Source of the DNA: Nitrospira japonica
GTDB taxonomy: Bacteria; Nitrospirota; Thermodesulfovibrionia; UBA6902
Assembly: GCA_020723105.1 (NCBI GenBank)
Contig: DYJL01000017.1
Location: 1,395 to 65,394, forward strand
DNA length: 64,000 bases
Direction of reading: 5' to 3'
Below are positions 29,727 to 61,267 of this stretch, piece by piece. A program made the translations under genes and the position numbers. Below the pieces are notes generated by a model, which did no database searches, had not been told where the DNA came from, and saw only the letters and a program-made list of their open reading frames with translations. Numbering within the stretch: position 1 is the first letter of the stretch; each line of letters begins with the position of its first letter.

Positions 29727-29793
29727 GGCTACAAGTTAAAAGTTATGAGTTGAATAATTTCCATTTTCACTTTCTGCTTGTCACTTTCAACTT
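29727..29793. repeat. Inverted pair of degenerate heptamer arrays
   Basis: GGCTACA AGTTAAA AGTTATG AGTTGAA, then TTCCATT TTCACTT TCTGCTT GTCACTT TCAACTT. Confidence 0.6.
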
Positions 29794-29799
29794 TTCTGT

Positions 29800-29875
29800 T
29801 GGTGGGCCCACCAGGACTCGAACCTGGGACCAACCGGTTATGAGCCGGTAGCTCTACCAACTGAGCTATGGGCCC
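29800..29875 (-). tRNA. tRNA with CAT anticodon, most likely tRNA-Ile2 (lysidine)
   Basis: GGGCCCATAGCTCAGTTGGTAGAGCTACCGGCTCATAACCGGTTGGTCCCAGGTTCGAGTCCTGGTGGGCCCACCA; 76 nt, encoded CCA, paired G1-C72 (so not an initiator). Confidence 0.93.
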
Positions 29876-30028
29876 TGCTTATTAAATTTTAACATGACAT
29901 TCTATGATAAAACGCTCATAAAAGTAAACTCTAACATCGCCTGGAATCGCAATTCACTCATCATAAAAATCACAACTTCTATAATTTATGAGTTGAAGTT
30001 TCTCATCCTCATCATTCATAATAACCCC

Positions 30029-31183
30029 ATGAATCCCACTTTTATAAAAGTCCATTCAGAAATTCAAAGAGGCATGAAACTTTCAAAGTGCAGAAAATGC
30101 GGCTGCATGAGTGGAACTCTGAATAATCTAAAAGCCTCTCTTCCGTTATTGAAGATGAAAGATGCAGAGGAACTGCTGCAAAGCGTCAATCAATGGCTCC
30201 AACAGCTTGAACCTCAGGCATATCCCTGTTTTGGATGCAAATACTGTATTCCGCCTGAAGCCATGACTGTATTGACAACAAAATACCCCTCTCTGGCATC
30301 TTCCACGCTGTCAAGCTGTGAAATAAAAATAAGCGACAACTCATGGCCCCCTGTTGAAGGTGAATACACGGTGCTGAACGCATCGGCGCCTGTTGCTGTT
30401 TCCACGCTTGCAAGTATTAACCTTGAAGAGAAATTATCAAAACTCAAACCAGCCGGCCTTTGTATTGTCGGCAAGACAGAGACTGAAAATATCGGCATTG
30501 ATAAAATCGTAAAAAATATCATCTCAAATCCTGCCATAAATTTTTTAATAGTAACAGGAAAAGATACAGAAGGACATCAAAGCGGAAAAACACTTTTAGC
30601 ACTCTGGGAAAACGGCATTGATAAAGATATGCGTGTAATCGGTTCTAAAGGCAGGCGTCCTATTCTAAAAAACGTAACACCTTTGGATGTAAATACATTC
30701 CGCAAGCAAATCCAGATCAAAGACCTGATTGGCTGTGAAAATACAAAAACAATAACAAACGCAATAGATGAGCTTTCAAAAAAAGCAGTTTCGGCAAAAA
30801 CCGTATCAAGTTGCGTGTGCAGTTGTGAATGTAACGAACCACAAACCAAGAAAACAACAATTTCGCTGCCTCTTGCAAAACCTGCCCTATCTATTCCAAA
30901 GATTACAGTAAAAAAATATGGCAAGTCTGTAAAGCTGGATCCATCTGGTTATTTTGTAATTATCCCATCAAAGAAAAACGGAAATATCCTTGTTGAGCAT
31001 TATTCATATAACAACAAACTGCTAAGAAAAATAGAAGGCGCCAACAGCCGGGATATCTACTTTACAATTGTTAACAATAACTGGGTGACTGAGTTAAGCC
31101 ATGCTGCATATCTGGGAAAAGAACTTGCAAGGGCCGAGATGTCTCTAAAGAAGGGCTTCAAGTACGTACAGGATGGAGCATAA
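30029..31183 (+). CDS. MtrA-like corrinoid-binding domain plus DUF4346 fusion, with Cys-rich N-terminus and linker
   Basis: WPPVEGEY..PVAVSTLAS..GKTETENIGIDKIVKNIISNPAINFLIVTGKDTEGHQSGKTLLALWENG resembles MtrA; LDPSGYFVI..HAAYLGKELARAE..YVQD resembles DUF4346; CRKCGC, CFGCKYC, CVCSCEC. Confidence 0.8.
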   Translation: MNPTFIKVHSEIQRGMKLSKCRKCGCMSGTLNNLKASLPLLKMKDAEELLQSVNQWLQQLEPQAYPCFGCKYCIPPEAMTVLTTKYPSLASSTLSSCEIKISDNSWPPVEGEYTVLNASAPVAVSTLASINLEEKLSKLKPAGLCIVGKTETENIGIDKIVKNIISNPAINFLIVTGKDTEGHQSGKTLLALWENGIDKDMRVIGSKGRRPILKNVTPLDVNTFRKQIQIKDLIGCENTKTITNAIDELSKKAVSAKTVSSCVCSCECNEPQTKKTTISLPLAKPALSIPKITVKKYGKSVKLDPSGYFVIIPSKKNGNILVEHYSYNNKLLRKIEGANSRDIYFTIVNNNWVTELSHAAYLGKELARAEMSLKKGFKYVQDGA

Positions 31184-31248
31184 ATAAAACTCGAAACATG
31201 TAGTCCGGAATGCGAATTTCGATATTCGCATTTCGATATTATTTTCTT

Positions 31249-32022
31249 ATGGGTAAAATAACTGCCGTAGCCAATCAAAAAGGTGGCGTCGGAAAAACAA
31301 CAACAGCTATCAATATATCAGCCTCTCTGGCTGCCGCTGAAAAAAATGTTCTGCTTATAGACACTGATCCTCAGGGAAACTCAACCAGCGGAATTGGTTT
31401 GGATAAAGACTCTCTCGAAGGAAGTCTTTACGATTTATATACCGAATCAAAAACCTTAGATGAGGTTATCAGACAAACAAACCTCCCTTTCCTCAGCATT
31501 ATTCCATCAAATATAGAACTGATTGGAGCGGAGCTTGAGCTCACTGGTAAAGACAACAGAGAGCTGATACTTAAGAATGCTATAGAACCAATTAAACACC
31601 GCTATGATTACATTTTCATAGACTGCCCTCCCTCTCTAAGCCTTCTGACACTCAATGCACTCGTTGCTGCTGATAGTCTGCTTATTCCCATGCAGTGCGA
31701 ATATTACGCTCTCGAAGGAATCAGCATGCTGCTTAGAACTTTCAATCTCATCAAAAATTCCTTCAATCCTTCACTTGAAATCGAAGGGATTCTGCTCACT
31801 ATGTTTGACGGCAGGAATACACTTGCCAATCAGGTTTCTGATGAATTAAAAAAACACTTTGGCGATAAGGTCTATAAAACACTTATCCCCCGGAATATAA
31901 CACTGGCTGAAGCTCCAAGTCATGGGAAACCTGTTATACTGTATGACAGCCGCTCAAAAGGCGCCCAGAGTTACCTCGATCTTGCAAAGGAGATAATGGA
32001 AAATGAAGCCCGCATTGGGTAA
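31249..32022 (+). CDS. parA: Chromosome partitioning ATPase ParA/Soj
   Basis: ANQKGGVGKTTT, DTDPQGN, IDCPPSL, QCEYYALEG, LAEAPSHG. Confidence 0.96.
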   Translation: MGKITAVANQKGGVGKTTTAINISASLAAAEKNVLLIDTDPQGNSTSGIGLDKDSLEGSLYDLYTESKTLDEVIRQTNLPFLSIIPSNIELIGAELELTGKDNRELILKNAIEPIKHRYDYIFIDCPPSLSLLTLNALVAADSLLIPMQCEYYALEGISMLLRTFNLIKNSFNPSLEIEGILLTMFDGRNTLANQVSDELKKHFGDKVYKTLIPRNITLAEAPSHGKPVILYDSRSKGAQSYLDLAKEIMENEARIG

Positions 32023-32851
32023 GGGTCTTTCTGCCCTGATACCAGAAAAAGAAAAAGTGAAGTCCCATGAGATACTCGAATTGAATATCAATTCAATCAT
32101 ACCTAATGAATACCAGCCCAGAAGAACCTTTGATGACAAGGCCTTAAGTGACCTTGTTGACTCAATTAAAGAAAAAGGCATTATCCAGCCTGTTATCGTA
32201 AGGAAAACATCAAGCAATTCATATCAGCTCATTGCCGGTGAGAGAAGATGGAGAGCTGCAAAGATTGCCGGACTTATTGGCATTCCGGCAATTGTTAAAG
32301 AAGCAGCTCCTGAAGAAGCCCTTGAACTTGCGCTTATCGAAAATATTCAGAGAGAAGACCTGAATCCTGTTGAAACAGCAGAGGCCTTCCAGAAGCTGAT
32401 AAATGAATTTAAACTTACACATGATGACATTTCTAAAAAAGTCGGAAAAGACCGGGCCACAGTAACAAATTATCTAAGAATACTTAAGCTCCCCTTTGAG
32501 ATAAAAAAGTGGATTGCTGAAGGCTCCTTAAGCATGGGACATGCCAAGGCGCTGCTTCAGGTTGAAAACCAGAGACTTCAGACAGAAATAGCAGGCAAAG
32601 TAATCAAATATGCACTGAGTGTCAGAGAGACAGAAGCTCTATGTAAAAAAGGTTTTATGCCGCAACCCCACCCTTCTGCCACCAGTAAATCAAAAGACCC
32701 TCAGATCGCCTCTCTTGAAGAAAAAATGATGCACAGGCTTGGAACAAAGGTCCGTTTAATCCACAAATCCAACAAAAAAGGCGGCAGGATAGAAATAGAA
32801 TACTACTCTCTTGAAGAACTGGACCGGCTGCTGGAAATATTGACAAGCTGA
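32003..32851 (+). CDS. parB: Chromosome partitioning protein ParB
   Basis: ALGKGLSALI, YQPRRTF, LIAGERRWRAA, ENIQREDLN, HTH. Confidence 0.96.
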   Translation: MKPALGKGLSALIPEKEKVKSHEILELNINSIIPNEYQPRRTFDDKALSDLVDSIKEKGIIQPVIVRKTSSNSYQLIAGERRWRAAKIAGLIGIPAIVKEAAPEEALELALIENIQREDLNPVETAEAFQKLINEFKLTHDDISKKVGKDRATVTNYLRILKLPFEIKKWIAEGSLSMGHAKALLQVENQRLQTEIAGKVIKYALSVRETEALCKKGFMPQPHPSATSKSKDPQIASLEEKMMHRLGTKVRLIHKSNKKGGRIEIEYYSLEELDRLLEILTS

Positions 32852-32870
32852 TGTATTTCCAAGCTCTTGT

Positions 32871-33098
32871 TTATGTTTTGGTTCTTCTTACTAAAACAAC
32901 TTCCTGTGCCTGAAACCCGTCTCCATCTTCTACCACTGTAAATTCTACAGGATCTCCTTCTTCCAGTGTGCATTTGCTGCCCTCACAGACAACAGCGCTG
33001 TAATGAACATATATTTCATCTCCCTGCTTGCGGGCTATAAAACCGTAGCCTTCTATATTGTCATACCATCTGACAATTCCGATTTCACGCTTTGGCAT
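32871..33098 (-). CDS. Cold-shock domain protein
   Basis: GIVRWYDNIEGYGFI (RNP1), IYVHYSAV (RNP2). Confidence 0.88.
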   Translation of the reverse strand: MPKREIGIVRWYDNIEGYGFIARKQGDEIYVHYSAVVCEGSKCTLEEGDPVEFTVVEDGDGFQAQEVVLVRRTKT

Positions 33099-33150
33099 AT
33101 TTCCCTACTTACTTAATTTAAAAATATAACATCAGCCACTTACCTTATGA

Positions 33151-33178
33151 TATTCGGCACAAAAGCTATTTTTCTTTA
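33151..33178 (-). promoter_or_regulatory. Sigma28-type promoter
   Basis: Minus strand TAAAG-aaaaatagcttttgt-GCCGAATA. Confidence 0.65.
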
Positions 33179-33266
33179 TAGCAGGTAATAAAAGCAGGTT
33201 TTAGAAATGGTACAACTATCTGTTTGCAGGAAGCTGTCAGAGGTTATACAAATTTGTGCTTTGCAG

Positions 33267-33761
33267 TTATGACTTCTCAACATTCCTGGCTTTTTTTAGT
33301 ACTTCAGATGCCATTTTTTTCCTATAGTCTTTGAGAGCGCTTGCAATAATAGGGTCTTTTACGCCTAAAATCTGTGCTGCAAAAATTGCAGAATTTTTTG
33401 CGCCGGCCTTGCCTATGGCCATTGCTGCAACCGGAACGCCAGGAGGCATCTGGACTGTTGAGTAGAGGGCATCAACACCTTTAAGGGGAGATGAATCAAT
33501 CGGCACCCCAATTACGGGAAGGATCGTGTGAGAAGCTATTACTCCAGCAAGATGTGCAGCGGCTCCGGCGCCTGCAATAATAACTTCAACACCATTTTTC
33601 TCAGCATTTTTTATAAGCTTAAAAGTTCGTTCGGGAGTCCTGTGAGCTGATGAGACAGTAATCTCATAAGATATATTAAACTGTTCAAGAATTTTTCCTG
33701 CCTCCTCCATTACCGGAAAATCAGAATCACTGCCCATTACTATTAAAACTTTCGGTTTCAT
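33267..33761 (-). CDS. purE: N5-carboxyaminoimidazole ribonucleotide mutase
   Basis: MGSDSD, SAHRTP, AAHLAG, VQMPPGVPVA. Confidence 0.97.
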   Translation of the reverse strand: MKPKVLIVMGSDSDFPVMEEAGKILEQFNISYEITVSSAHRTPERTFKLIKNAEKNGVEVIIAGAGAAAHLAGVIASHTILPVIGVPIDSSPLKGVDALYSTVQMPPGVPVAAMAIGKAGAKNSAIFAAQILGVKDPIIASALKDYRKKMASEVLKKARNVEKS

Positions 33762-33777
33762 AATATCTCCTGACTTT

Positions 33778-33858
33778 TAGTAGTTAGTTGGTAGTTAGGG
33801 GAAAAGAAAAAATATGGAAGATGTCCCTTAACTACTAACTACTGATTCCTTAGCTACT
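33778..33858. repeat. Inverted pair of degenerate heptamer arrays
   Basis: tagtagttagttggtagttagggg ... cccttaactactaactactgattccttagctact. Confidence 0.65.
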
Positions 33859-35128
33859 GTCTCTTGATTGCTTTATCTGCAATATCCGTCCTGTAATGCA
33901 TTCCATCAAAATGGATTTTCTCAAGGGCTTTATAGGCATTTCCCTTTGCTGTCTGAATGTCCTTGCCGAGTGCAGTTACACCCAGCACCCTTCCGCCAGA
34001 GGTGACGATCTTCCCTTTATTAAGACTTGTGCCTGCGTGAAAGACCATTATATTTCGTTTACCTTTGAGTTCATCAAGCCCTTCTATAATTTTGCCCTTT
34101 TCATACGTCCCGGGATATCCCTTTGATGAAACAACTACACACACAGCAGTATCTTCTTTCCATATAACCTGAACCTCGCTGAGCCTGCCTTCTGCTGTTG
34201 CTTTCAACATATCAAACAAATCGCTGTCGAGTCTCATTAAAATTGGCTGGGTCTCAGGATCGCCAAAGCGGCAATTAAACTCAAGTACATAAGGTTTCCC
34301 GTCAACAATCATCAACCCGGCATAAATTACACCCCTGTAATTCATTCTCTCCCTTTTAAGCCCCTTCATCATAGGATCAATAACAGTCTTCATAATCTTT
34401 GAATATAAATTTTTATCTATTACCGGGGCCGGACTGTAAGCGCCCATACCACCAGTGTTAGGCCCTTTATCTCCATCAAAAATTTTTTTATGATCCTGTG
34501 ACGTAGCAAGAGGGACAACAGTTTTGCCGTCAGTCAAAATCATAAAAGAGGCCTCTTCTCCTTTTAAACATTGCTCAACCACAACCTTGCTGCCGGCATC
34601 ACCAAATGCCTTTTCCTTCATTATCAACCTGAGGGCATCTATAGCCTCATCAGCAGTTTCACATACAAATACGCCCTTGCCTGCTGCAAGACCGTCTGCC
34701 TTTATCACAACAGGCACCCCTTTGAGTCTGATATATTCTTCTGCATGAAGACAGGATGTAAATGTCTTGTATTCAGCAGTGGGCAGGCCATATTTACGCA
34801 TAAAATTTTTTGCAAATACCTTGCTGCCCTCAAGCCTTGCTCCTGATTTGTCCGGGCCGAAAATCCTGCGTTCTGCTTTTAGAAATGAATCAACAATTCC
34901 TGCAGTAAGCGGGGCCTCGGGGCCAACAACTGTCAAATCAATACCCTCGTATTTTGCAAAGTTTAACAATGCATCTATATCGTCTGCCTTTATATCAAGG
35001 CATTCTGCAAGTTCCACTATGCCGGTATTGCCTGGAGCACAGAATACCTTATCAACCCTTGAACTCTGCCTGAGCTTCCACACAAGGGCATGTTCCCTGC
35101 CGCCACTACCTATTACAAGAACTTTCAT
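33854..35128 (-). CDS. purD: Phosphoribosylamine--glycine ligase
   Basis: GSGGREHAL, KADGLAAGKGV, GPNTGGMGAYSP, EFNCRFGDPE. Confidence 0.98.
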   Translation of the reverse strand: MKVLVIGSGGREHALVWKLRQSSRVDKVFCAPGNTGIVELAECLDIKADDIDALLNFAKYEGIDLTVVGPEAPLTAGIVDSFLKAERRIFGPDKSGARLEGSKVFAKNFMRKYGLPTAEYKTFTSCLHAEEYIRLKGVPVVIKADGLAAGKGVFVCETADEAIDALRLIMKEKAFGDAGSKVVVEQCLKGEEASFMILTDGKTVVPLATSQDHKKIFDGDKGPNTGGMGAYSPAPVIDKNLYSKIMKTVIDPMMKGLKRERMNYRGVIYAGLMIVDGKPYVLEFNCRFGDPETQPILMRLDSDLFDMLKATAEGRLSEVQVIWKEDTAVCVVVSSKGYPGTYEKGKIIEGLDELKGKRNIMVFHAGTSLNKGKIVTSGGRVLGVTALGKDIQTAKGNAYKALEKIHFDGMHYRTDIADKAIKRQ

Positions 35129-35138
35129 GATTTTCTCC

Positions 35139-35220
35139 AGGGTTCAAGGAAGTAAGGGGTAGGGTGCAGGTAGAAAACCATTTTATCCTACACCCTTCTC
35201 CCTCAATCCCTACACCCTTT
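35139..35220. repeat. Inverted pair of degenerate heptamer arrays
   Basis: agggttcaaggaagtaaggggtagggtgcaggtag ... tcctacacccttctccctcaatccctacaccc. Confidence 0.6.
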
Positions 35221-35223
35221 CTT

Positions 35224-36771
35224 TTAATGTTTAAAGTGCCGCATTCCGGTAAATACCATAGCCATATTATGTTCATCGGCTGCAGCAATTACATCGTTAT
35301 CTTTAATCGAGCCGCCAGGCTGAATAACTGCAGTTACGCCCATAATTGCGATATAGTCTATGCCGTCCCTGTTGGGAAAAAATGCATCTGAGCCGACAAC
35401 CGAACCTTTCAGCGAGTTAAGCGACTTCATGGCGCCGAGCTTTGCTGAATCTATCCTGCTTGTCTGTCCCACGCCGATACCGAGCGCCCGGTCCTTTGTG
35501 GTATAAACGATTGCATTTGATTTCATGTGTTTGCATACCTTCCATGCAAAAGAAAGCGCAGCATACTCATCATTGCTCGGCTTTCTCCTGGTAACAACCT
35601 TCAAAGATCTGACGTCATCAATCATTCCCGTATCTCTCTCCTGAACAAGGAGCCCGCCCTGAACTTTTCTTATTTCAAACCCCGCAGGGGCCTTTGCCAA
35701 ATCCAGTTCAAGCAGCCTTATATTAGGTTTGCCGCTTAAGAGCTTCAAAGCCTCTGCATCAAAAGCCGGCGCAATGATGATTTCAACAAAAAGCTTAAGT
35801 ATCTCATTTGCGGTCGCTGCATTGACAGCCCTGTTTAACGCAATAACTCCTCCGAAAGCAGACAACGGATCAATTTCATAAGCCTTCACATACGCTTCTT
35901 CAATTTTATCCGCCACTGCAACTCCGCAGGGATTGTTATGCTTGATAATAATTGCGGCCGGTTCAGTAAACTCTCTCACCAAATCAATTGCCGCGCTTGA
36001 GTCAAGATAATTGTTATATGACATCTCCTTGCCCTGCAAGATCTTTGCGCCGACAAGGGAAAGCCCGTTATAAAGAGGCTCTTTATATATGGCCGCCTTC
36101 TGATGAGGGTTTTCACCATACCGCAGCTCATTTATCTTCGAAAAGCTCTGATTGAAATACTGCGGCAGCAGTTCCGCAGCTTTATCGTATCTCGCAAGAT
36201 AATTGGAGATCAGCGTATCGTATCTTGCGGTGTGCGTAAAAACCTTTCGTGCAAGATAGAATTTTGTATCGCGGCTTGCGGTACCACCGGTTTTCAATTC
36301 ATCAAGAATTTTTGAATAATCATCAGGGTCTACAATAACAATCACGTCCTTGAAATTTTTTGAAGCCGCCCTCAGCATGGTAGGTCCCCCAATGTCAATA
36401 TTTTCAATAGCCTCTTCAAAGGTTACATCAGATTTTGAAACCGTTTGTTCAAACGGATAAAGATTCACTACAACCATGTCTATAGGTTTGATATCATACT
36501 TTTTAATGTCTTCCTGGTCCTTTCCATGGTCCCGTCTTGAAAGCAGCCCTCCGTAAATCTTTGAATGCAGGGTCTTAAGCCTGCCGTCAAGCATTTCAGG
36601 AAAACCCGTGTAATCGGAAACCTCGATAACAGAAAGGCCGGCATCGCGCAGCGCTTTTGCAGTGCCTCCGGTTGAAAGAATTTCAATTCCGAGACTGGTT
36701 AACTCCTTTGCAAACTCCACTATCCCTGTCTTGTCAGATACACTTATCAGCGCTCTTTGAACCTTTGCCAT
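35224..36771 (-). CDS. purH: Bifunctional AICAR transformylase/IMP cyclohydrolase
   Basis: [43 protein letters not shown]. Confidence 0.98.
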
Positions 36772-36798
36772 TTTACCTCCAGTTATAAATCCTGAATT

Positions 36799-37491
36799 TT
36801 ATACATACCCTTTTTCCATTATGCTTACATAGTTGCCATCTGCAACGACTACATGATCCAACACATTAATGCCTATTATTCTGCCTGTCTCAACAAGCCT
36901 TTTAGTAATATCTATATCGTCTTTGCTTGGGTTTGGATCCCCGCTTGGGTGATTATGTACAAACAGAACAGAGGCAGCCGCTTCCTTTATAGCGTACCGA
37001 AATACCTCCCTGGGATGCACAAGAGAAGATGTAAGGGTGCCGTCTGAAACAGTGGTTTCCTTAAATACCCGGTTCTTTACATCAAGCAGTGCGCAAAGAA
37101 ACTTCTCCTTTTTTAAACCGTAAAATCTGGGCCTGTAGTATTCATATACTTCCCGGCTGTTCCTAAAATACGGAATCGTTCCTTCTCCGCCCGCTTCATT
37201 CTGTAACAGCCTTCTTCCAAGCTCAAATGAGGCTTTTAACTGAGCAATCTTGGCAGGGCCCATGCCTTTAAATTTAGCCAATTCATCAGGAGCTGCATCC
37301 TCCATCTCCTTGAGATCTTTAAAATTCAAAAGTATCTCCCTTCCTAATTCCAGAGCGCTCTTGTTTTTATCGCCGGTCTTTAATATTATCGCCAGCAACT
37401 GAGCTGTGCTCAAACCATAAGCGCCAAATCTCAGAAGCCTCTCACGCGGTCTTTCATCCTCAGGCCATTGCTTGATGCTTTTATATTCCAT
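36799..37491 (-). CDS. radC: RadC/UPF0758 JAB-domain protein
   Basis: WPEDERPRERL, VHPREVF, HNHPSGDPNPSKDD, LDHVVV; start trimmed to MEYKSIK. Confidence 0.93.
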   Translation of the reverse strand: MEYKSIKQWPEDERPRERLLRFGAYGLSTAQLLAIILKTGDKNKSALELGREILLNFKDLKEMEDAAPDELAKFKGMGPAKIAQLKASFELGRRLLQNEAGGEGTIPYFRNSREVYEYYRPRFYGLKKEKFLCALLDVKNRVFKETTVSDGTLTSSLVHPREVFRYAIKEAAASVLFVHNHPSGDPNPSKDDIDITKRLVETGRIIGINVLDHVVVADGNYVSIMEKGYV

Positions 37492-37503
37492 ATCCCCGTT
37501 AAA

Positions 37504-37531
37504 GAATACAGGATTCGGGATACAGGATGCA
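37504..37531. repeat. Degenerate heptamer array
   Basis: GAATACA GGATTCG GGATACA GGATGCA between rph and radC. Confidence 0.6.
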
Positions 37532-37534
37532 ATA

Positions 37535-38254
37535 TTAACTTTCTCCAAGCGCAGCCTTCTGAACAGCAATAATTTTCTTTATCCCGGCCTCTGCAAGATC
37601 GAGCATGCTCTGCAGCCGCATCCTGTCAAACGGCTCTGTTTCTGCAGTGCCCTGAACTTCTATGAATTTTCCTGAACCCGTCATAACAATATTCATATCA
37701 ACCTCTGCTGTTGAATCCTCAAGATAAGAAAGGTCCAGTCTCGGCGCTCCCTCAACCATGCCGACACTTACAGCAGCAACATAATCCCTCAGGACCTGTT
37801 TTTCGATGATCCTGTTTTCCAGAGCATATCTCAGGGCCAGTTTCAGCGCTACAAAGGCGCCAGTTATCGCAGCAGTCCTGGTCCCGCCATCGGCCTGAAT
37901 AACGTCACAATCAAGCCATATCGTTCTTTCTCCCAGCGCCTTAAGGTCTACAACAGAGCGCATGGCCCTGCCGATAAGCCTTTGTATTTCGTGAGTCCTG
38001 CCGCCAATCTTTCCGCTTGACGCTTCCCTTATTGTTCTGATAGGCGTGGCCCTCGGAAGCATTGAATATTCAGCCGTGATCCACCCCCGGCCCTGATCTT
38101 TCAGAAAAAGAGGCACCTTATTCTCAATGGAAGCTGTGCATATTACTCTTGTATCTCCCATTTCTATCAACACGGCGCCTTCAGCAGTATTTAAAAACCT
38201 GTTTATAATATTAATTTTTCGCAACTCATCTGTACTTCTTCCATCAGGCCGCAT
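37535..38254 (-). CDS. rph: Ribonuclease PH
   Basis: [45 protein letters not shown]. Confidence 0.97.
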
Positions 38255-38257
38255 CCG

Positions 38258-41252: not shown

Positions 41253-41756
41253 TCAATGAACCTCCGTCGTAATCTGAATTTCTTTTGAAAGCAATCCCTC
41301 TGACAGCCCCACTGCTGTAATCCTGTAATAATATTTCACATTGGGTTTAACGTTCTTATCTGTGAAAGCAGGAGTGACCGTCTCGCCAACCAGCATCTGG
41401 CCCTCGCCTGTTGTGGTGGAGCGATAAATTCTGTACAGTTTTATATCCTGTCCCTGAACCTCATCCCATGTAAGCACAATGCTTTGCCGGGTATAAACAC
41501 CTTTTAGTCCTGCGGGGGAATCCGGAGTGGTTACCTGTATTGTTTGCTCTTCACGCATTTTCTGCTTTGACAAATCCTCTTGTCTCTCTCCCTCTTTTTG
41601 GGTTTCATCCTTCTTTCTTTCAACAGCTCTTTCATCACGGGGTTCAATTGCAACAGGATCGCCCCTTCTGCCGCAAGCAGTAAGCGAAGTGAGAAGTAAG
41701 AAGTGAGAAGCAAGAAGTAAGATATTAACGCTCAGAAATAATTTTTTATTTTTCAC
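41253..41756 (-). CDS. Lipoprotein with fibronectin type III domain
   Basis: LTACGRRGDP lipobox; P.GL..LTWD..YRIYR..FTD..V.P..YYYRITAV. Confidence 0.8.
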   Translation of the reverse strand: MKNKKLFLSVNILLLASHFLLLTSLTACGRRGDPVAIEPRDERAVERKKDETQKEGERQEDLSKQKMREEQTIQVTTPDSPAGLKGVYTRQSIVLTWDEVQGQDIKLYRIYRSTTTGEGQMLVGETVTPAFTDKNVKPNVKYYYRITAVGLSEGLLSKEIQITTEVH

Positions 41757-41766
41757 TTCCCACTTT

Positions 41767-43137
41767 TCACTTCCCAGTTTTTATTTTCCTGATCCTTGCA
41801 AGCACCCTCCTTCCGGAGGTCCCGCCGAAAGATTTCTTACTGTCAATTGAAGTCTTAACTGTAATGTAATCAAAGACATCCTTCCCGATAAGCCTTGAAA
41901 ACTGCTGAAACTCCCTCGTACTCAACTCATTCAGGGCCTTCTTATTATCAATGCAATATCTCACGATTTCACCGGTAACCCTGTGAGCCTCGCGGAAAGG
42001 CATGCCTTTTCTGACAAGATATTCAGCAAGGTCTGTGGCAGTCGGAAACCCCTTCTCTAAGGCCTGCTCCATCGCTTCTTTATTAAAGCGCATTCCAGGC
42101 AGCATCTCTGTTAAAACCTGAAGGCTTGATTTCACTGTATCAACTGTATCAAACAAAGGCTCTTTGTCTTCCTGCAAATCTCTGTTATATGCAAGCGGCA
42201 ACCCCTTCATGACAGTGAGTATGGCCACAAGATGTCCAAACACCCTTCCCGCCTTGCCCCTTATCAATTCAAGGACATCAGGGTTTTTCTTCTGCGGCAT
42301 GATGCTGGAACCGGTCGTAAAGGAATCGGGCAATTCAACAAATCCGAACTGATCGTTATTCCATATAATTATTTCTTCTGAAAGCCTTGACAGATGCACC
42401 ATCAAAGTACTTGACGCTGAAATAAATTCAATGACAAAGTCCCTGTCAGATACAGCATCCATGCTGTTTTCCGATATTCTGGGAAACTTTAAAAGCTGTG
42501 CTACATATTTCCGGTCAACAGGGAACGTTGTTCCAGCTAATGCAGCAGAGCCAAGAGGCATCACATTCACCCTCTTCAGACAGTCTTTAAATCTCTCCAG
42601 GTCCCGCTCCAGCATCTCAAAATATGCAAGCAAATGATGCGCAAGCAGCACAGGCTGTGCTTTCTGGAGATGCGTAAATCCGGGCATAACAGTATCAACA
42701 TGTTTCTCTGCGGCAGAGACCAGAACTCTCTGAAAGTTCTTAAGGAGTTTTAAAACATCTGCAATTTCATCCCGCAGAAAAAGCCTGATATCAAGAGCCA
42801 CCTGGTCATTCCTGCTCCTTGCCGTATGAAGCTTGCCACCAACAGGGCCTATTTTCTTGATGAGGGCCTGTTCTATATTCATATGCACATCTTCAAGGCT
42901 GTCAAGAAACCTGAACTTGCCGCCCTGTATTTCCGTCTTTATTTCATTCAGCCCCTGAAGGATTAAACCGGCATCTTTTTGAGGTATTATCTTCTGCCTG
43001 CCGAGCATCTTTACATGTGCGATGCTGCCCTCGATGTCGTATTTCCAGAGACGGACGTCAAAAGACAGTGAAGAGGTAAAATTTTCCACCACCTTTTCCG
43101 TCTTTTCTTTAAACCTTCCGGACCAGAGTTTTTCCAT
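41767..43137 (-). CDS. argH: Argininosuccinate lyase
   Basis: KLWSGRF, KLHTARSRNDQV, GSSIMPQKKNPD, YNRDLQEDK. Confidence 0.98.
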   Translation of the reverse strand: MEKLWSGRFKEKTEKVVENFTSSLSFDVRLWKYDIEGSIAHVKMLGRQKIIPQKDAGLILQGLNEIKTEIQGGKFRFLDSLEDVHMNIEQALIKKIGPVGGKLHTARSRNDQVALDIRLFLRDEIADVLKLLKNFQRVLVSAAEKHVDTVMPGFTHLQKAQPVLLAHHLLAYFEMLERDLERFKDCLKRVNVMPLGSAALAGTTFPVDRKYVAQLLKFPRISENSMDAVSDRDFVIEFISASSTLMVHLSRLSEEIIIWNNDQFGFVELPDSFTTGSSIMPQKKNPDVLELIRGKAGRVFGHLVAILTVMKGLPLAYNRDLQEDKEPLFDTVDTVKSSLQVLTEMLPGMRFNKEAMEQALEKGFPTATDLAEYLVRKGMPFREAHRVTGEIVRYCIDNKKALNELSTREFQQFSRLIGKDVFDYITVKTSIDSKKSFGGTSGRRVLARIRKIKTGK

Positions 43138-45711: not shown

Positions 45712-45820
45712 GGGTTTAAGCCGCTTAAACCGTTTTTTGTTTCTTCCCTACCCCCCTACACCCTATCCCCTAATCCCTGATTTATTGAATTAACCATTTG
45801 ATTAATGATATTTTATTCAG

Positions 45821-53780: not shown

Positions 53781-53785
53781 TATTT

Positions 53786-54424: not shown

Positions 54425-54440
54425 AATAAAAAACCCCTGT

Positions 54441-54501: not shown

Positions 54502-54617
54502 AGAAACATATCACAATTCCTGAATAATGAAGAAAAGAGTAACAAAAATAGCTTAAAAATACAATGTCTTTCCAAGGGGTTTATAGCCGGTTTGATGCCG
54601 TTGATAAATTTTTTAGC

Positions 54618-54645
54618 TAAAGAAAAATCAGTTAATTGCCGATAA
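54618..54645 (+). promoter_or_regulatory. Sigma28-type promoter
   Basis: TAAAG-aaaaatcagttaatt-GCCGATAA (consensus -10) ahead of rhodanese and MCP. Confidence 0.75.
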
Positions 54646-54713
54646 TTAAGTGTAATTAGAGAAACCACCATCGGTGGGTACACAAAAGACCTATATAGTT
54701 AAGGGAGGGTTAT

Positions 54714-55193: not shown

Positions 55194-55287
55194 TGGCACA
55201 GATACCGGAATAAGGGGTAATGGAAAAACATATTGTCAATTTCCTTACCCCTCTTCTGTTATATGAAATATTGAACAGGGAATCGCC

Positions 55288-57741: not shown

Positions 57742-57747
57742 AAACTA

Positions 57748-58485: not shown

Positions 58486-58882
58486 TTAACTTAGTTTAGG
58501 ACATTCTTTTGGAAAAATCTATAGCATAAATTACCTTCTTAAAAAAGCTGTTACCCACTGACAAAAATTTACATTTTCTTTACACACATTAACAGCACAT
58601 TTACAAAACCGTCTGATACCATTAATGCAGGATAATCTGAATATGCATGCTTTTTCGAAAACAATTGAATTGATCAATGCTGAATTTTGCAAATCGTTTG
58701 ATAATCAATGCTTATATTTATTGACCGGATACTGCTTATGTGATAAAAGCTTGATAAGCAGGCGAATAGACTATATGGAATCTCAATCACGAAACCCTAA
58801 TACATGAAAAAAAAGGAGGTGAAAGAACTTTTAACTTTGCATTTGATTTCTAAAAATTAACTTAAAAAAGGGGGAATTAAAA

Positions 58883-60598
58883 ATGAAAAAAAATATCTAC
58901 ATCCTGATTGCGGCAGCGCTTGCTCTTGTCTTTACGGTAGGCCTTTATTATTCAAAAGTAGATGCCCAGACTGAAAAGGCCTCTGCCAAGACAGCAGTTC
59001 AAAAAGAGAAAGACGTCAAGGCGGAGACATGCTATGAATGTCATGACCAGATTCAGGAGCTCCATAAGATGGGGAAACATTCAAAGGTCAATTGCGCGAA
59101 CTGCCACAAGGAGCTTGACAAGCATCTGAAGGCCGCGGAAAACCAGACACCGGAAACAAGGCCTGTAACTGACACATCATGGGAAGCCTGCGGCCAGTGC
59201 CATAAGGAACAATACGAGACATTTATGAAGACCGCCTATCACAGGCCGGCGCGTGATGAAAAATCACAGCTTACAAACAGGTCTCCAAACCCATTCTGGG
59301 ACAAACTGATGGCAGGTCACGGCTTTACAAAAGAGCACAACCTTACGAGAAGCCATAACTGGATGCTTACAGATCATCTCATAGTTGACAGGGCCTATGG
59401 CGGAAGATTCCAGGGTAAAAACGGATGGCAATATATATTTGAGACCGGCAAGGCTTGGGACATACTCCAGGATAATTATCCGGATGTTGCCGAGCACAAA
59501 CCTTTTATTCCGCAAAGCGCCGCTGCTGCAAATCCTGTGTGTCTGCAATGTAAAACGCAGGACCAGATACTCAAATGGTCGTACATGGGCGACCCTGTTC
59601 AGGGCGCAACATGGTCCAGAACCTCAAAGGTATTTGAATTTGTCAAAGATCTCCAGCACGGACTTAACTGCTTCTTCTGTCATGACCCTCACGCTGCAAA
59701 GCCGAGAATCGTAAGAGACGGTTTAATTGATGCGCTCACAAGGCCTGAAGCGGATACACTCTGGCATAAGGATCCCAACAGAACAGGGATAAAGGTTATT
59801 GACATGGGCATGAGAGGCTTTACAAGGAAGATCGCTCTGCTCGATAAATATGACACAAGACTTCAGTGCGGACAGTGCCATGTCGAGTACAATTGCAATC
59901 CGGGTTATGATCCGAAGAATCCTGACACGTCGAAACCCAATGTTACAATGGCTGACAGAAGGACCAACCATTTCCCGTACAAGGATGTATTTGAGCTCTA
60001 TGATCATTATGTAAATAAAGTCAGCTTCCTCGATTTTAAACATGCCATAACAGGCGGACTGCTCTGGAAGGCCCAGCATCCTGAAGCTGAAGTTTATTAC
60101 AATTCTAAGCATGCAAAGGCCGGAGCAGGCTGTGACAGCTGTCATACGCCGAAGGTAAAAGACAAAAAAACCGGAAAGGTCTACACCTCTCATTTCGCGG
60201 TCACTCCAAAAGTCCAGCTTAATGACACCTGTCTTAAATGCCATCCCAAGTGGACCGAGGAACAGGCGCGGTATGCGATTGATTCTGTAAAAGCCCATAT
60301 ACGGGGCAAAATGAGAAAGGCTGAATACTGGCTGTCAACACTGATCGACAGAATCGCAGCAGCCAAGAAGGGCGGGGTAGATGCCGAGATCATAAAGCAG
60401 GCGCAGGACCAGCATCTCAAGGCACATATCCTCTGGGAATTCTGGACTGCCGAGAATTCAGACGGTTTCCATAATCCCCAAATGGCAAAGGAATCTATGA
60501 CTAAGTCCATTGACGAGTCCCAGAAAGGCATCAAGATCATCGATGACGCGATGGCGCCCAAACCTGCTGCTGCAGCACCGGCTGCACCGGCAAAGTAA
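58883..60598 (+). CDS. Octaheme cytochrome c nitrite reductase (ammonia-forming, ONR/TvNiR type)
   Basis: Signal peptide; 7 CxxCH plus one CxxCK (CLQCK, fourth heme); KAQHPEAE; AENSDGFHNP. Confidence 0.92.
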   Translation: MKKNIYILIAAALALVFTVGLYYSKVDAQTEKASAKTAVQKEKDVKAETCYECHDQIQELHKMGKHSKVNCANCHKELDKHLKAAENQTPETRPVTDTSWEACGQCHKEQYETFMKTAYHRPARDEKSQLTNRSPNPFWDKLMAGHGFTKEHNLTRSHNWMLTDHLIVDRAYGGRFQGKNGWQYIFETGKAWDILQDNYPDVAEHKPFIPQSAAAANPVCLQCKTQDQILKWSYMGDPVQGATWSRTSKVFEFVKDLQHGLNCFFCHDPHAAKPRIVRDGLIDALTRPEADTLWHKDPNRTGIKVIDMGMRGFTRKIALLDKYDTRLQCGQCHVEYNCNPGYDPKNPDTSKPNVTMADRRTNHFPYKDVFELYDHYVNKVSFLDFKHAITGGLLWKAQHPEAEVYYNSKHAKAGAGCDSCHTPKVKDKKTGKVYTSHFAVTPKVQLNDTCLKCHPKWTEEQARYAIDSVKAHIRGKMRKAEYWLSTLIDRIAAAKKGGVDAEIIKQAQDQHLKAHILWEFWTAENSDGFHNPQMAKESMTKSIDESQKGIKIIDDAMAPKPAAAAPAAPAK

Positions 60599-60610
60599 TT
60601 AACTTCAAAA

Positions 60611-60635
60611 AAGGCGGAGCATAGTGCTCCGCCTT
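60611..60635. terminator. Stem-loop after ONR (terminator or stabilising hairpin)
   Basis: aaggcggagca-tag-tgctccgcctt; weak U-tract on the + strand. Confidence 0.6.
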
Positions 60636-60674
60636 CTGATTTTACAAGATGGGGAAGGGGGTGAAATTTTAGAT

Positions 60675-61160
60675 ATGAAAAAATTTATTTTACTCTTTGT
60701 AATCGGCTTGGGAATTGTCTCATTCTTTGCTTCAACAGGCAGCGGCCATAACAACAGCTCTCCCAATTTTGAATGCAACACATGTCATCAGGGTGAAGGC
60801 TCTGCTGAGATAAAAATTGACGGCCTGCCAAAGAAATATGTCCCCGGCAAAGTTTATAAAATGACATTGATAATCGAAAGCGGCAATCAAAGTTTCGGTG
60901 ATAACGCAGGCGGATTTGCCATGGAAGCCTCGGCGGGCGAACTTGTGGTGACTGATAACAAAAATACACAGATAAGCGAAGGGCTTCTGACTCACACACA
61001 GGAGGGCGCAGCGTTAAGAAAATGGACCTTCGGATGGAAGGCCCCGGCTGATAAAAAAGATGTTGACCTGACCATAATGGGTGTAGCTGCAAATGGAGAT
61101 TTTTCGCCGGTCGGCGACGTGATAGGAACGGAAGGTTTAACAATTATGCCGGAGAAATAA
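60675..61160 (+). CDS. Exported monoheme (CxxCH) Reeler-like protein
   Basis: Signal peptide; CNTCH; GLPKKYVPGKVY..GGF..LTHT..WTFGWKAP..VAANGD. Confidence 0.75.
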   Translation: MKKFILLFVIGLGIVSFFASTGSGHNNSSPNFECNTCHQGEGSAEIKIDGLPKKYVPGKVYKMTLIIESGNQSFGDNAGGFAMEASAGELVVTDNKNTQISEGLLTHTQEGAALRKWTFGWKAPADKKDVDLTIMGVAANGDFSPVGDVIGTEGLTIMPEK

Positions 61161-61267
61161 ACATGGGTTGTAAAGAGAAGAGAAAGTGAAAGCAGGCAGT
61201 ATGAAGTAAGCAGTAAGCACGGTAAGTTTATTCTGCTTACTATTTTAAACAAGGGAGGTGCTGACAA

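What the first reader, a model, noticed from the sequence alone, without database searches (positions are those of the whole stretch)
29727..61241. Window-wide family of locus-specific heptamer arrays, often as head-to-head inverted pairs inside operons
Seen: intergenic 7-mer arrays followed by an approximate reverse-complement array at 29727-29793, 33778-33858 (purD/purE), 35139-35220 (purH/purD), 41687-41771, about 55200-55256 and 61173-61241. Single arrays occur at 31215-31240, 37504-37531 and 45745-45780. The unit differs by locus (AGTTAAA, TAGTTAG, TAGGGTG, AAGTGAG, AGTAAGC, ATTTCGA, GGATACA, CCCTAAT), but period and architecture are shared. Known: heptamer STRR repeats are described in filamentous cyanobacteria. 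Inference: these may be empty footprints or target sites of a small mobile cassette. From memory and unverified, such arrays often flank four-helix-bundle or GxxExxY genes. Alternatively they are RNA hairpins marking processing sites. Conserved period without conserved sequence suggests an uncharacterised generating mechanism.
Basis: partly seen in the sequence, partly recalled or inferred. Interest (0 to 1): 0.7.

Follow-up and report, generated by a model that had tools for sequence, protein, structure and literature searches.

The report
Heptamer-repeat hairpins across a Nitrospirota genome
The gaps between genes in this bacterium are full of short 7-base tandem repeats, often in mirror-image pairs that can fold into hairpins; such repeats are already known from cyanobacteria and Xanthomonas, and their origin is still unexplained.

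Summary
Seven of the nine named sites are period-7 arrays. One (55200) is a plain hairpin and one (31215) is a period-14, terminator-like hairpin. In the whole 3.13-Mb genome, a Nitrospirota MAG, period 7 dominates: 501 Tandem Repeats Finder (TRF) rows against 66 (period 6) and 174 (period 8), with 73-98 in shuffled controls. Any trinucleotide recurring 4 times at a fixed spacing gives 928 loci at period 7 against 95 and 108. Inverted partners lie within 150 nt for 106 of 501 arrays (controls 26 and 9).

This is the known class of heptamer simple-sequence arrays (cyanobacterial STRR, Xanthomonas GGGAATC, Beggiatoa TAACTGA), here in a new phylum. It is not the footprint of an ORF-carrying cassette: inverted partners show no excess at gene-sized distances, and no GxxExxY ORFs lie between arrays.

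New details:
- The hairpins have a fixed handedness. The 5' arm holds AGT 221 times and ACT 3 times.
- Arrays most often have four units, even where the units are not G-rich.
- The same operon spacers are occupied in relatives, but with different units.
- Arrays sit in frame inside housekeeping genes.
- Distribution across the phylum is patchy (147 of 251 genomes).

The most likely origin is DNA-level slippage and template switching plus occasional copying. This is inferred, not shown.

The parts
29733..29754 (.). 5' arm of a degenerate inverted pair, units AGTTAAA/AGTTATG/AGTTGAA. It lies between tRNA-Met (29800-29875, -) and the start of the zinc-ribbon ORF 29002-29709 (-).
   Evidence: Sequence; tRNA; period-7 autocorrelation 0.53 and weak hairpin (z -1.4 and -1.0).
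29764..29793 (.). 3' arm of the same pair, units of the form nnnACTT (CACTTTT-like).
33778..33801 (.). 5' arm (on the + strand) of the purD/purE spacer hairpin, units TAGTAGT/TAGTTGG/TAGTTAG.
   Evidence: z -4.6 on + strand, -2.7 on - strand; gene labels from Pfam.
33825..33858 (.). 3' arm of the purD/purE hairpin (TAACTAC units). It runs into the purD stop codon at 33854-33856.
   Evidence: (33829-33843, 2.1 copies, 100% match).
35140..35173 (.). 5' arm (on the + strand) of the purH/purD spacer hairpin, G-rich units such as TAGGGTG and AAGGGGT.
   Evidence: z -3.2 and -5.7.
35186..35219 (.). 3' arm of the purH/purD hairpin, C-rich units such as CTACACC.
41679..41722 (.). 5' arm of the hairpin just downstream of argH (41767-43137, -). 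Units GAAGTGA/GAAGTAA/GAAGCAA with a 14-nt super-period.
   Evidence: period 7, 5.3 copies; period 14, score 60; z -6.7 and -5.7.
41750..41781 (.). 3' arm of the same hairpin, units TTTTCAC/TTCCCAC.
   Evidence: period 14, 94% match.
55211..55252 (.). Plain inverted repeat (purine-rich arm first) between the rhodanese gene and the MCP gene. It is a hairpin, not a clear heptamer array.
   Evidence: period 7 0.40 against period 8 0.39; z -2.6 and -3.6.
61180..61241 (.). Array of AGTAAGC/AGTGAAA-type units (TRF row 61196-61219) with a short complementary CTGCTTACT at 61233-61241. It lies upstream of the molybdopterin oxidoreductase gene.
   Evidence: 3.4 copies; z -1.5 and -2.4.
31206..31240 (+). 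12-pair hairpin with a T-rich tail after the MtrA-like gene. It contains a period-14 direct repeat. It is terminator-like rather than a heptamer array.
37504..37531 (.). Single array ATACAGG x3.3 between rph (RNase PH) and radC.
   Evidence: (0.71).
45713..45780 (.). Composite element: a small hairpin (45713-45731), a T run, then a C-rich array of four units (CTACCCC-type, 45745-45780) in the divergent GGDEF/lpxB spacer. It belongs to a multi-copy family.
10830..10861 (+).

Best explanation
These are heptamer simple-sequence arrays of the STRR kind. The class is abundant across this lineage of Nitrospirota and is not tied to any one locus or gene.

Shown:
- Arrays are most often 4 units long (about 28-32 nt).
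- They are enriched in transcribed spacers between co-directional genes.
- About a third of intergenic arrays have an inverted partner within about 100 nt.
- The pairs have one fixed handedness: a C-poor, AGT/TAG-type arm on the 5' side and a G-poor, ACT/CTA-type arm on the 3' side.

Inferred mechanism:
1. Arrays arise and change length at the DNA level by replication slippage with a preferred 7-nt register. This is the idea that PMC4692102 attributes to its reference 33.
2. The inverted arm arises by intrastrand snap-back or template-switch copying. This would explain why both arms share a unit and why only one handedness occurs. A nascent strand made of A, G and T can self-pair through G-T and A-T, whereas one made of A, C and T cannot.
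3. Whole composite hairpins are occasionally copied to new sites, often nearby.
4. Selection then keeps only copies that do no harm: in spacers between the stop codon and the Shine-Dalgarno sequence, or in frame and free of stop codons in surface-variable parts of proteins.

On this reading the arrays are by-products of genome dynamics, selfish or neutral, and not footprints of a cassette.
For: Kind:
- Period-7 excess.
- 193 distinct units.
- Density by spacer type: co-directional 1.29 per kb, convergent 0.72, divergent 0.43. The under-representation in divergent spacers matches what PMC4692102 reports for Xanthomonas and Nostoc.
- Copy number peaks at 4: counts are 134 (2 copies), 133 (3), 183 (4), 39 (5), and 12 with 6 or more, out of 501. 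PMC4692102 reports the same four-unit preference.
- That paper describes 70 and 75 'convergent' inverted pairs. This is the same handedness as found here.

Handedness:
- In 83 inverted loci the 5' arm holds AGT 221 against ACT 3, TAG 120 against CTA 1, and GAG 81 against CTC 3.
- The same holds in samples of G026 (17:1), G005 (10:0) and G098, a genome of another class (9:0).

DNA-level rather than sense-RNA-level:
- RNA fold energy shows no bias to the transcribed strand (27 against 30 of 57).
- The paired fraction is the same in co-directional, convergent and divergent spacers (0.29, 0.30, 0.25).
- No U-tract terminators: only 2 of the 9 sites fall at scan hits.
- No Rfam family apart from the tRNA.

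Turnover with persistent occupancy:
- The purH/purD and purD/purE spacers of 13 genomes of the order nearly all hold an array or a palindrome, but with different units. The closest metagenome relatives show the same.

Slippage signature:
- 14- and 21-nt super-periods (155 and 64 TRF rows against 23-31 and 0-6 in controls).
- Each arm has its own alternation of variant units.

Copying:
- 18 of 84 inverted loci have a second copy.
- A roughly 110-nt composite hairpin is shared, about 85% identical by eye over the element (78% mean over all 251 aligned columns), by the cbiD and cbiG/H genes, with unrelated flanks.
- The two pur spacers of G005 are near-identical.

Selection filter:
- All 21 ORFs tested that hold deep arrays are housekeeping genes by Pfam.
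- Stop-triplet words number 147 on the sense strand against 336 on the antisense strand of those arrays.
- Ferrochelatase (27 orthologues) and CbiD (9 orthologues) show in-frame insertions of variable length at a few hot spots.
Against: - No step of the mechanism was observed. I found no strain-level polymorphism. The closest relative found is at 87-90% amino-acid identity, so unit gain or loss was never seen directly.
- The sharp drop above about 4.6 units is not what unconstrained slippage predicts. It needs an extra length limit or a selection term that I cannot name.
- Why the register is 7 is unexplained. Some relatives carry octamer arrays as well (G024, G031, G030 and family f3).
- Nearly every pur-operon spacer in 13 genomes is occupied. 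Co-directional spacers are enriched. Both facts would also fit a selected RNA function.
- The weak shared unit pattern has information content 4.26 bits against 3.59-3.84 for shuffled units. The AGT enrichment is 1.7-fold. Either could equally reflect a sequence-specific protein or enzyme.
- Gene calls were crude (longest ORFs of 90 aa or more), so the intergenic and ORF counts are approximate.
Confidence: 0.5

Rival explanations
1. Selected RNA elements. The hairpins act in polycistronic transcripts, either as barriers to 3' exonucleases, as RNase processing sites, or as platforms for a protein that binds single strands with a 6-7-nt footprint (for example a cold-shock OB-fold protein). They are kept by selection while their sequence drifts.
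For: - Highest density is in co-directional spacers (1.29 per kb against 0.43 in divergent spacers).
- The same two pur-operon spacers are occupied in nearly all of 13 genomes despite unit turnover.
- In the two pur spacers the hairpin fills the gap from the stop codon to the Shine-Dalgarno sequence.
- Because of the fixed handedness, the hairpin looks the same from either strand.
- Hairpins also separate tRNA genes.
- PMC4679880 raises the Csp heptamer-binding idea (passages read).
Against: - Sense-strand RNA is no more stable than antisense (27 against 30).
- The paired fraction is the same in convergent and divergent spacers.
- 164 of 501 arrays lie deep inside ORFs, and some genomes of the order have almost none (G014: 0 hits). 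The function would therefore have to be dispensable.
- No Rfam match.
- The paper on Xanthomonas found no regulatory role (PMC4692102 Discussion).
Confidence: 0.2
2. Non-autonomous mobile elements (MITE- or REPIN-like) moved in trans by a transposase, for example the roughly 320-aa Y1 (HUH) proteins encoded in the genome.
For: - 18 of 84 inverted loci are multi-copy.
- One near-perfect palindrome family built of TAGTTKT units has 8-11 copies.
- A 110-nt composite element is copied between two genes.
- A 115-nt element with terminal inverted repeats and an internal four-unit array has 30 copies beside unrelated genes.
- Y1_Tnp domain genes occur in 54 of 64 genomes of the order, 6 matches in this genome.
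Against: - 66 of 84 inverted loci have no second copy at 70% coverage.
- There are 193 distinct units, so there is no conserved recognition sequence.
- No target-site duplication is visible at the one copied pair examined.
- No array lies within 1 kb of any of the 5 Y1 loci examined.
- Y1 presence does not track arrays. G047 has 171 AGT hits and no Y1 match. G014 has 3 Y1 matches and no arrays.
Confidence: 0.15
3. Non-B DNA or G-quadruplex regulatory elements, as proposed for the G-rich heptamers of Xanthomonas and Nostoc.
For: - Some units are G-rich (AGGGGGT 13 rows, AGGGATT 16 rows).
- The most common array length is four units, which is the minimum for a quadruplex (PMC4692102).
Against: - The four-unit mode comes from the whole set of 501 arrays (not split by unit type).
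- The commonest unit (AAGAGTT, 31 rows) and many other common units have no G tract.
- The same mode is seen in G026, G005 and G098.
Confidence: 0.05
4. One reading: the inverted arrays are empty footprints or target sites of a small cassette that carries an ORF.
For: In relative G026, small GC-rich palindromes sit in or beside some hairpin loops. From recall, Elhai 2008 reported small dispersed repeats embedded in heptamer arrays in Nostoc. I could not read that paper.
Against: - No excess of inverted partners at 150-4800 nt.
- 0 of 23 array-flanked small ORFs carry GxxExxY.
- No filled allele in the 13 genomes or the 9 metagenome loci compared at the pur spacers.
- GC-rich palindromes are not near arrays in this genome.
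Confidence: 0.03

Closest known systems
STRR (short tandemly repeated repetitive) heptamers of heterocystous cyanobacteria. Mazel et al. 1990 is recalled; PMC4692102 mentions it as three heptanucleotides in Calothrix PCC 7601.
   Same: Tandem 7-nt units, several unit sequences per genome, mainly intergenic, unknown origin. From recall, two of the three STRR units contain AGT, as many units do here.
   Different: Here the phylum is Nitrospirota, with 193 distinct units rather than a few. Inverted pairing and handedness are quantified. Arrays also lie in frame inside housekeeping genes.
GGGAATC repeats of Xanthomonas and GGGGA(C/T)T repeats of Nostoc PCC 7120 (Rehm et al. 2015, PMC4692102; passages and Discussion read).
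   Same: Heptamer period, strong intergenic bias, most common length of four units, under-representation between divergent genes, pairs in 'convergent' orientation (70 and 75 cases), conservation of position with variation in length and sequence between species, and no function found.
   Different: Those genomes have one dominant G-rich unit, read as G-quadruplex-forming. Here most units are not G-rich, yet show the same length mode and handedness. This argues that the quadruplex is not the cause.
TAACTGA direct repeats of marine Beggiatoaceae, some cyanobacteria and Bacteroidetes (MacGregor 2015, PMC4679880; passages read).
   Same: Heptamer direct repeats of 2-6 copies, mostly intergenic and close to start codons, patchy across phyla. 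The reverse complement of the unit contains AGT. Repeats inside ORFs lie in the orientation without stop codons.
   Different: That system has essentially one unit and almost no inverted pairs (one case). Here there are many units and about a third of intergenic arrays are paired.
REP/REPIN elements with RAYT transposases (Bertels and Rainey 2011, PMC3116915; passages read).
   Same: Intergenic, hairpin-forming doublets of inverted short repeats, multi-copy, non-autonomous.
   Different: REPs have a conserved sequence of 20 nt or more and a cognate flanking RAYT gene. Here units differ by locus, arms are internally periodic, and the Y1 genes are not flanked by arrays.
Rickettsia palindromic elements (Ogata et al. 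2000; recalled, not read).
   Same: Palindromic elements of about 100 nt inserted in frame in protein-coding genes and translated. Here a 110-nt composite hairpin lies in both cbiD and cbiG/H.
   Different: No sequence relationship. Here the elements are built from heptamer arrays and most are single-copy.

Membership tests
Heptamer simple-sequence arrays (STRR-type) | Head-to-tail copies of a 7-nt unit, at least 2-3 copies | tested here: met
   501 period-7 rows in the genome; 7 of the 9 named sites.
Heptamer simple-sequence arrays (STRR-type) | Genome-wide excess of period 7 over neighbouring periods and over chance | tested here: met
   501 rows against 66 and 174, with controls at 73-98; 928 loci against 95 and 108.
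Heptamer simple-sequence arrays (STRR-type) | Preference for non-coding DNA | tested here: met
   239 of 501 rows lie in the 11% of the genome outside crude ORFs.
Xanthomonas-type convergent inverted heptamer pairs | Two arrays close together on opposite strands, always in the convergent (purine-rich arm first) order | tested here: met
   106 of 501 paired; AGT 221 against ACT 3 in 5' arms. The definition is taken from PMC4692102.
Xanthomonas-type convergent inverted heptamer pairs | G-rich unit able to form a G-quadruplex | tested here: not met
   the commonest unit is AAGAGTT. G-tract units are a minority.
REP/REPIN with RAYT | One conserved palindromic sequence in many copies | tested here: not met
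   193 units; 66 of 84 inverted loci have no second copy.
REP/REPIN with RAYT | A Y1 transposase gene flanked by the repeats | tested here: not met
   Y1 genes are present, but none of the 5 loci examined has a period-7 or period-14 array within 1 kb.
MITE | Terminal inverted repeats, target-site duplication and many copies | tested here: inconclusive
   some families are multi-copy (30 copies of a 115-nt element). No duplication is visible in the one pair aligned. Ends were not mapped systematically.
Intrinsic (Rho-independent) terminators | GC-rich stem-loop followed by a U tract on the transcribed strand | tested here: not met
   only 31206-31235 and 45713-45731 match. None of the six inverted pairs does.
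Known RNA families (Rfam 15) | Match at the gathering score | tested here: not met
   the tRNA is the only match in the 64-kb window.
In-frame palindromic insertions (Rickettsia palindromic element-like behaviour) | A palindromic element inside an intact ORF, translated, and present in more than one gene | tested here: met
   This is behaviour only; there is no homology to the Rickettsia elements, and translation is inferred from intact frames.

The most novel reading that the evidence does not exclude
A still unidentified DNA-copying activity that varies between lineages could be at work. It would be snap-back or template-switch synthesis with a register of about 7 nt, acting on nascent strands that contain G. 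Such an activity would build heptamer-array hairpins of one fixed handedness and a preferred length of about 30 nt. It would paste them into operon spacers and, in frame, into housekeeping genes. The same process would underlie the unexplained heptamer repeats of cyanobacteria, Xanthomonas and Beggiatoaceae. Because array abundance ranges from 0 to about 600 pattern hits among related Nitrospirota genomes, the responsible gene could be found by phyletic profiling.
Probability: 0.25. Interest if true: 0.8.

Novelty: new member of a known kind. Interest (0 to 1): 0.5.

Why it matters
Over-representation of heptamer repeats in bacteria has been reported since 1990 (Calothrix STRR, recalled) and 2007 (reference 33 of PMC4692102). 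According to the two 2015 papers I read, no mechanism or function has been agreed.

This genome and its relatives add four things:
- Handedness. The fixed order of the two hairpin arms does not depend on which strand is read. It therefore constrains any mechanism.
- Length. The four-unit preference comes from a set whose commonest units have no G tract. This weakens the G-quadruplex reading, although the two unit classes were not compared separately.
- Protein evolution. Arrays and composite hairpins sit in frame inside conserved enzymes: ferrochelatase, CbiD, MurC, MurD, PurL, GuaA and AspRS. They are a source of variation in protein loops.
- A natural experiment. Related genomes range from none to hundreds of arrays: 60 of 64 genomes of the order and 147 of 251 sampled across the phylum have at least one hit. 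A comparative search for the cause is therefore feasible.

There is also a practical point. Arrays coincide with contig ends and inflate ORF starts, so they affect the assembly and annotation of MAGs.

Tried and rejected
- RNA evidence: the look-up of sequencing runs (kind rna) on window 29000-38999 listed no RNA holder.
- Papers not held: Elhai 2008 by DOI and by PMC id, and Mrazek 2007 by DOI. What I say of them is recalled or taken from citing papers. A full-text search for 'heptanucleotide' + 'tandem repeats' + 'Nitrospirae' found 0 papers. Among the 40 of 91 papers listed for five heptamer-repeat terms, none has a title or abstract start that concerns Nitrospirota. No supplements were opened.
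- Regional sharing of units in this genome: neighbouring arrays 150-10000 nt apart are no more alike (7-8% within one mismatch) than random pairs (6%). I dropped the idea for G000. In G026 and G005 neighbouring elements do look alike, but I did not quantify this.
- Translational-coupling idea (only hairpins tolerated in operon spacers): the paired fraction is the same in all spacer types, so it is not supported.
- Wobble asymmetry as a sign of RNA selection: no bias.
- Y1 transposase link: weak and with exceptions both ways.
- Arrays as targets of GC-rich palindromes in G000: not supported.
- A shared unit consensus: expectation-maximisation alignment gives only a weak pattern, roughly T-Y-A followed by purines (4.26 bits against 3.59-3.84 for shuffled units).
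- 'Seed or insertion' test on CbiD orthologues: all 9 genomes carry some insert at the hot spots, so no empty site was available.
- The first version of the motif script failed on TRF consensus units not 7 nt long. It was rerun on 492 of the 501 rows. The trinucleotide counts count each word and its complement, so only the ratios are meaningful.

Full report
WHAT IS THERE

The window is G000:C35:1395-65394 of a 3.13-Mb, 94-contig assembly with 42% G+C. Its PurH is closest to MAGs titled Nitrospirales, Nitrospirae or Nitrospira (best 72% identity). Pfam confirms purE (33267-33761, -), purD (33854-35128, -) and purH (35224-36771, -), as well as the other genes flanking the sites.

I measured their periodicity and folding against 200 dinucleotide shuffles. 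Period 7 is the strongest period between 4 and 10 at every site (0.40-0.71).

Three inverted pairs are strong hairpins:
- 33778-33858: z -4.6 and -2.7
- 35139-35220: z -3.2 and -5.7
- 41687-41771: z -6.7 and -5.7

Two pairs are weak (29727-29793 and 61173-61241, z -1.0 to -2.4). The site at 55200-55256 is a hairpin without clear heptamer periodicity. The site at 31215-31240 is a period-14 repeat within a terminator-like hairpin. The site at 45745-45780 is part of a multi-copy composite element.

IS IT MORE THAN CHANCE?

Yes, by a wide margin.
- Tandem Repeats Finder (TRF) on the whole genome gives 501 period-7 rows, against 66 for period 6 and 174 for period 8. Periods 14 and 21 give 155 and 64 rows. 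A third-order Markov genome gives 98 period-7 rows and a block-shuffled genome gives 73.
- A TRF-independent count asks how often any trinucleotide occurs four times at a fixed spacing. It gives 38, 95, 928, 108 and 145 loci for periods 5 to 9. For AGT/ACT alone it gives 0, 1, 113, 2 and 1.
- A reverse-complement array (two units, at most 2 mismatches) lies within 150 nt of 106 of 501 arrays. The complement control gives 26 and the reverse control 9. These merge into 84 loci.
- Partners are close. Downstream of the left arm, 47 lie within 100 nt, against 12 in the control. At 150-4800 nt inverted copies are no commoner than direct ones.

WHERE THE ARRAYS LIE

Gene calls were crude: greedy selection of ORFs of 90 aa or more, giving 2729 ORFs and 88.7% coverage. 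On that basis the 501 arrays split as follows:
- 239 are intergenic.
- 98 lie near an ORF end. Many of these reflect over-extended starts.
- 164 lie deep inside ORFs.

Density per kb of spacer is 1.29 between co-directional genes, 0.72 between convergent genes and 0.43 between divergent genes. The fraction with a partner is the same in all three (0.29, 0.30, 0.25).

The deep-ORF arrays are real. All 21 ORFs I tested are housekeeping genes by Pfam: the cbi/cob operon, murC, murD, purL, mqnC/E-like radical SAM genes, dapF, tilS, guaA, aspS and a TPR protein. Inside the window, the ferrochelatase gene carries a perfect AATTTCA x4.6 array (10830-10861) read as EFQISNFKFQI.

Alignments of 27 ferrochelatase orthologues and 9 CbiD orthologues from the same order and genus show well-conserved enzymes interrupted at a few hot spots. 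The interruptions are in-frame inserts of variable length. Their peptides are translations of heptamer arrays, for example SSKFQVPSSK and SSLVTRHSSL. In relatives some are translations of GC-rich palindromes, for example PPSPPFSKGG. In deep-ORF arrays, stop-triplet words are rarer on the sense strand than on the antisense strand (147 against 336). Orientation is otherwise balanced: AGT-type sense 33, ACT-type sense 35.

ANATOMY

Units are diverse: 193 canonical units among 501 rows, led by AAGAGTT (31), AGGGATT (16) and AGGGGGT (13). They share only a weak pattern, roughly T-Y-A followed by purines (4.26 bits against 3.59-3.84 for shuffled units). AGT/ACT is enriched 1.7-fold.

Copy number peaks at four (183 of 501) and collapses above five; only 12 rows have six or more copies. 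The same mode appears in samples of G026, G005 and G098.

The most striking regularity is handedness. A palindrome's 5' arm is equivalent on both strands, so the order of the two arm types does not depend on strand choice. In 83 inverted loci the 5' arm holds:
- AGT 221 times against ACT 3
- TAG 120 against CTA 1
- GAG 81 against CTC 3
- AAG 115 against CTT 4

AGT outnumbers ACT in 59 arms, the reverse holds in 1, and 23 are tied. By purine content, 65 loci are purine-first and 15 pyrimidine-first. Most of the 15 belong to a TAGTTTT-type family that still has AGT in the 5' arm. The rule holds in G026 (17:1), G005 (10:0) and G098, a genome of another class (9:0).

RELATIVES

AGT-N4 arrays occur in 60 of 64 genomes of the order. 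Pattern hits on both strands range from 0 to about 600, and G000 has 155. Chance expectation, by my own estimate from base composition, is below one per genome.

The period-8 control gives 0-2 hits in G000. It reveals true octamer arrays in a few lineages: G024, G031, G030 and family f3.

In an even sample of the phylum, 147 of 251 genomes have at least one hit. The pattern is strongly patchy by family: f21 55 of 60 and f25 28 of 39, against f19 0 of 12, f26 2 of 28 and f28 4 of 17.

At the two pur-operon spacers, 13 genomes of the order nearly all carry an array pair, a single array or a small GC-rich palindrome, but the units differ:
- G000: TAGTTAG
- G009: AGTGACG
- G005: GTRACGC (near-identical elements in both spacers)
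- G027: GCGTTnn
- G026: AAAATCA

Nine metagenome loci at 66-90% PurD identity show the same. One of them has an array of at least 14 units running into the contig end. No allele holds an ORF between the arms.

COPYING

Most composite hairpins are unique. Of 84 inverted loci, 18 have another copy covering at least 70% at 80% identity or more, and 39 share one arm with another site.

Copying clearly occurs. A roughly 110-nt composite (purine-type array, a second internal array, then a pyrimidine-type array) is shared by cbiD and cbiG/H, 5.5 kb apart. Both copies are in frame and the flanks are unrelated. Identity is about 85% by eye over the element; the mean is 78% over all 251 aligned columns. 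I saw no target-site duplication there.

The array at 45745-45780 belongs to two dispersed composites:
- One has 9-mer GCTTAAGCC-like repeats, a T run and the C-rich array.
- The other is a 115-nt element with terminal inverted repeats, found 30 times beside unrelated genes.

WHAT IT IS NOT

- Not a known RNA family: only the tRNA matches Rfam.
- Not intrinsic terminators: only two of the nine sites fall at terminator-like hits, and neither is an inverted pair.
- Not REP/RAYT. Y1 transposase-domain genes exist (54 of 64 genomes, 6 matches here). However, none of the 5 loci examined has arrays nearby, and presence does not track array counts.
- Not flanking GxxExxY genes: 0 of 23.
- Not associated with GC-rich palindromes in this genome.

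COMPARISON WITH WHAT IS KNOWN

PMC4692102 (passages and Discussion read) describes heptamer GGGAATC arrays in Xanthomonas and GGGGA(C/T)T arrays in Nostoc. The shared features are:
- an intergenic bias;
- a preference for four units;
- 70 and 75 'convergent' inverted pairs;
- under-representation between divergent genes;
- conserved position with variable length between species;
- no function found.

That paper relays the idea that 7 nt matches the DNA segment held by the polymerase, which would favour slippage.

PMC4679880 (passages read) describes TAACTGA repeats in Beggiatoaceae, cyanobacteria and Bacteroidetes. It raises cold-shock proteins as heptamer binders.

The finding is therefore a new member of a known kind. 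I found no paper tying it to Nitrospirota: the three-term search returned 0 papers, and nothing relevant appeared among the 40 titles listed.

The additions here are the quantified handedness with units that are not G-rich, the four-unit mode in arrays whose commonest units lack G tracts, in-frame invasion of housekeeping genes, and the patchy phylum-wide distribution.

HOW IT MOST LIKELY WORKS

This section is inferred. I propose slippage in a 7-nt register, with 14- and 21-nt block duplications, followed by snap-back or template-switch copying that creates the second arm. Only an A/G/T strand can self-pair through G-T and A-T to prime this, which would give the single handedness. Occasional copying of whole elements follows. 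Selection then leaves copies only between the stop codon and the Shine-Dalgarno sequence, or in frame in tolerant protein loops.

The lack of transcribed-strand bias in fold stability (27 against 30) favours a DNA-level origin. So does the equal paired fraction across spacer types.

Four points count against this reading:
- No polymorphism was observed.
- The cut-off near 4.6 units is unexplained.
- The reason for a register of 7 is unknown, and some lineages use 8.
- Persistent occupancy of operon spacers would also fit a selected RNA role.

I put 0.5 on this account, 0.2 on a selected RNA function, 0.15 on transposase-driven elements, 0.05 on non-B DNA or quadruplex regulation, and 0.03 on the cassette-footprint idea.

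Noticed in passing
window 10830-10861 (ferrochelatase gene 10358-11377): A perfect AATTTCA x4.6 array lies in frame inside a conserved enzyme. Orthologues in 27 genomes show four hot spots of in-frame inserts of variable length, derived from arrays or palindromes.
   Followed up: yes
G000 C94:60001-80000 (L141) and G026 C48:60001-100000 (L105-L106): The cobalamin-biosynthesis operon is the densest array region in both genomes, which belong to different families. CbiD alone holds six arrays in G000.
   Followed up: partly
G000, 30 places (for example C34:51789-51826); related to window 45745-45780: A MITE-like element of about 115 nt has terminal inverted repeats and an internal ordered four-unit C-rich heptamer array. 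It lies beside unrelated genes in either orientation.
   Followed up: partly
window 45713-45741 and about 20 other places in G000: A composite of tandem 9-mers (GCTTAAGCC-like) forms a small hairpin, followed by a T run and then the C-rich heptamer array. The sequences next to it recur at other sites as well.
   Followed up: partly
G024, G031, G030 and family f3 genomes; L001:4203-4277; L212 upstream spacer: Some relatives carry octamer arrays (units such as AGTTATTA and AGTGTCAG) with the same look, so the period is not strictly 7 across the order.
   Followed up: no
pur spacers of G002, G006, G009, G010, G020 and L178: Small GC-rich palindromes beginning with GTAGGGGC occupy the same spacers that hold heptamer hairpins in other genomes. 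They look REP-like (from recall). In relatives they also appear translated inside ferrochelatase.
   Followed up: partly
G000 C69:31422-32390, C83:167-1102, C32:11-991: Proteins of about 320 aa have an N-terminal Y1 (HUH) transposase domain and a C-terminal part. From recall the C-terminal part resembles the DnaA helix-turn-helix domain; this was not tested. Similar genes occur in most genomes of the order.
   Followed up: partly
L178 (metagenome contig end) and G000 contig starts C48:145 and C45:74: Arrays sit at contig ends. One relative's contig stops inside an array of at least 14 units, which suggests that long arrays break assemblies and are under-counted.
   Followed up: no
G000 C48:145-593: Spacers between tRNA genes in a tRNA cluster are filled with AAGAGTT/AACTCTT hairpins. 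The window site beside tRNA-Met at 29727-29793 is similar.
   Followed up: no
window 15947-15966: A further short period-7 row (CTCTTGC x2.7) that I did not examine.
   Followed up: no
window 41253-41756 and 36799-37569: ORF lists start these genes inside the arrays, and Pfam coverage begins later. Arrays therefore inflate predicted N-termini.
   Followed up: partly
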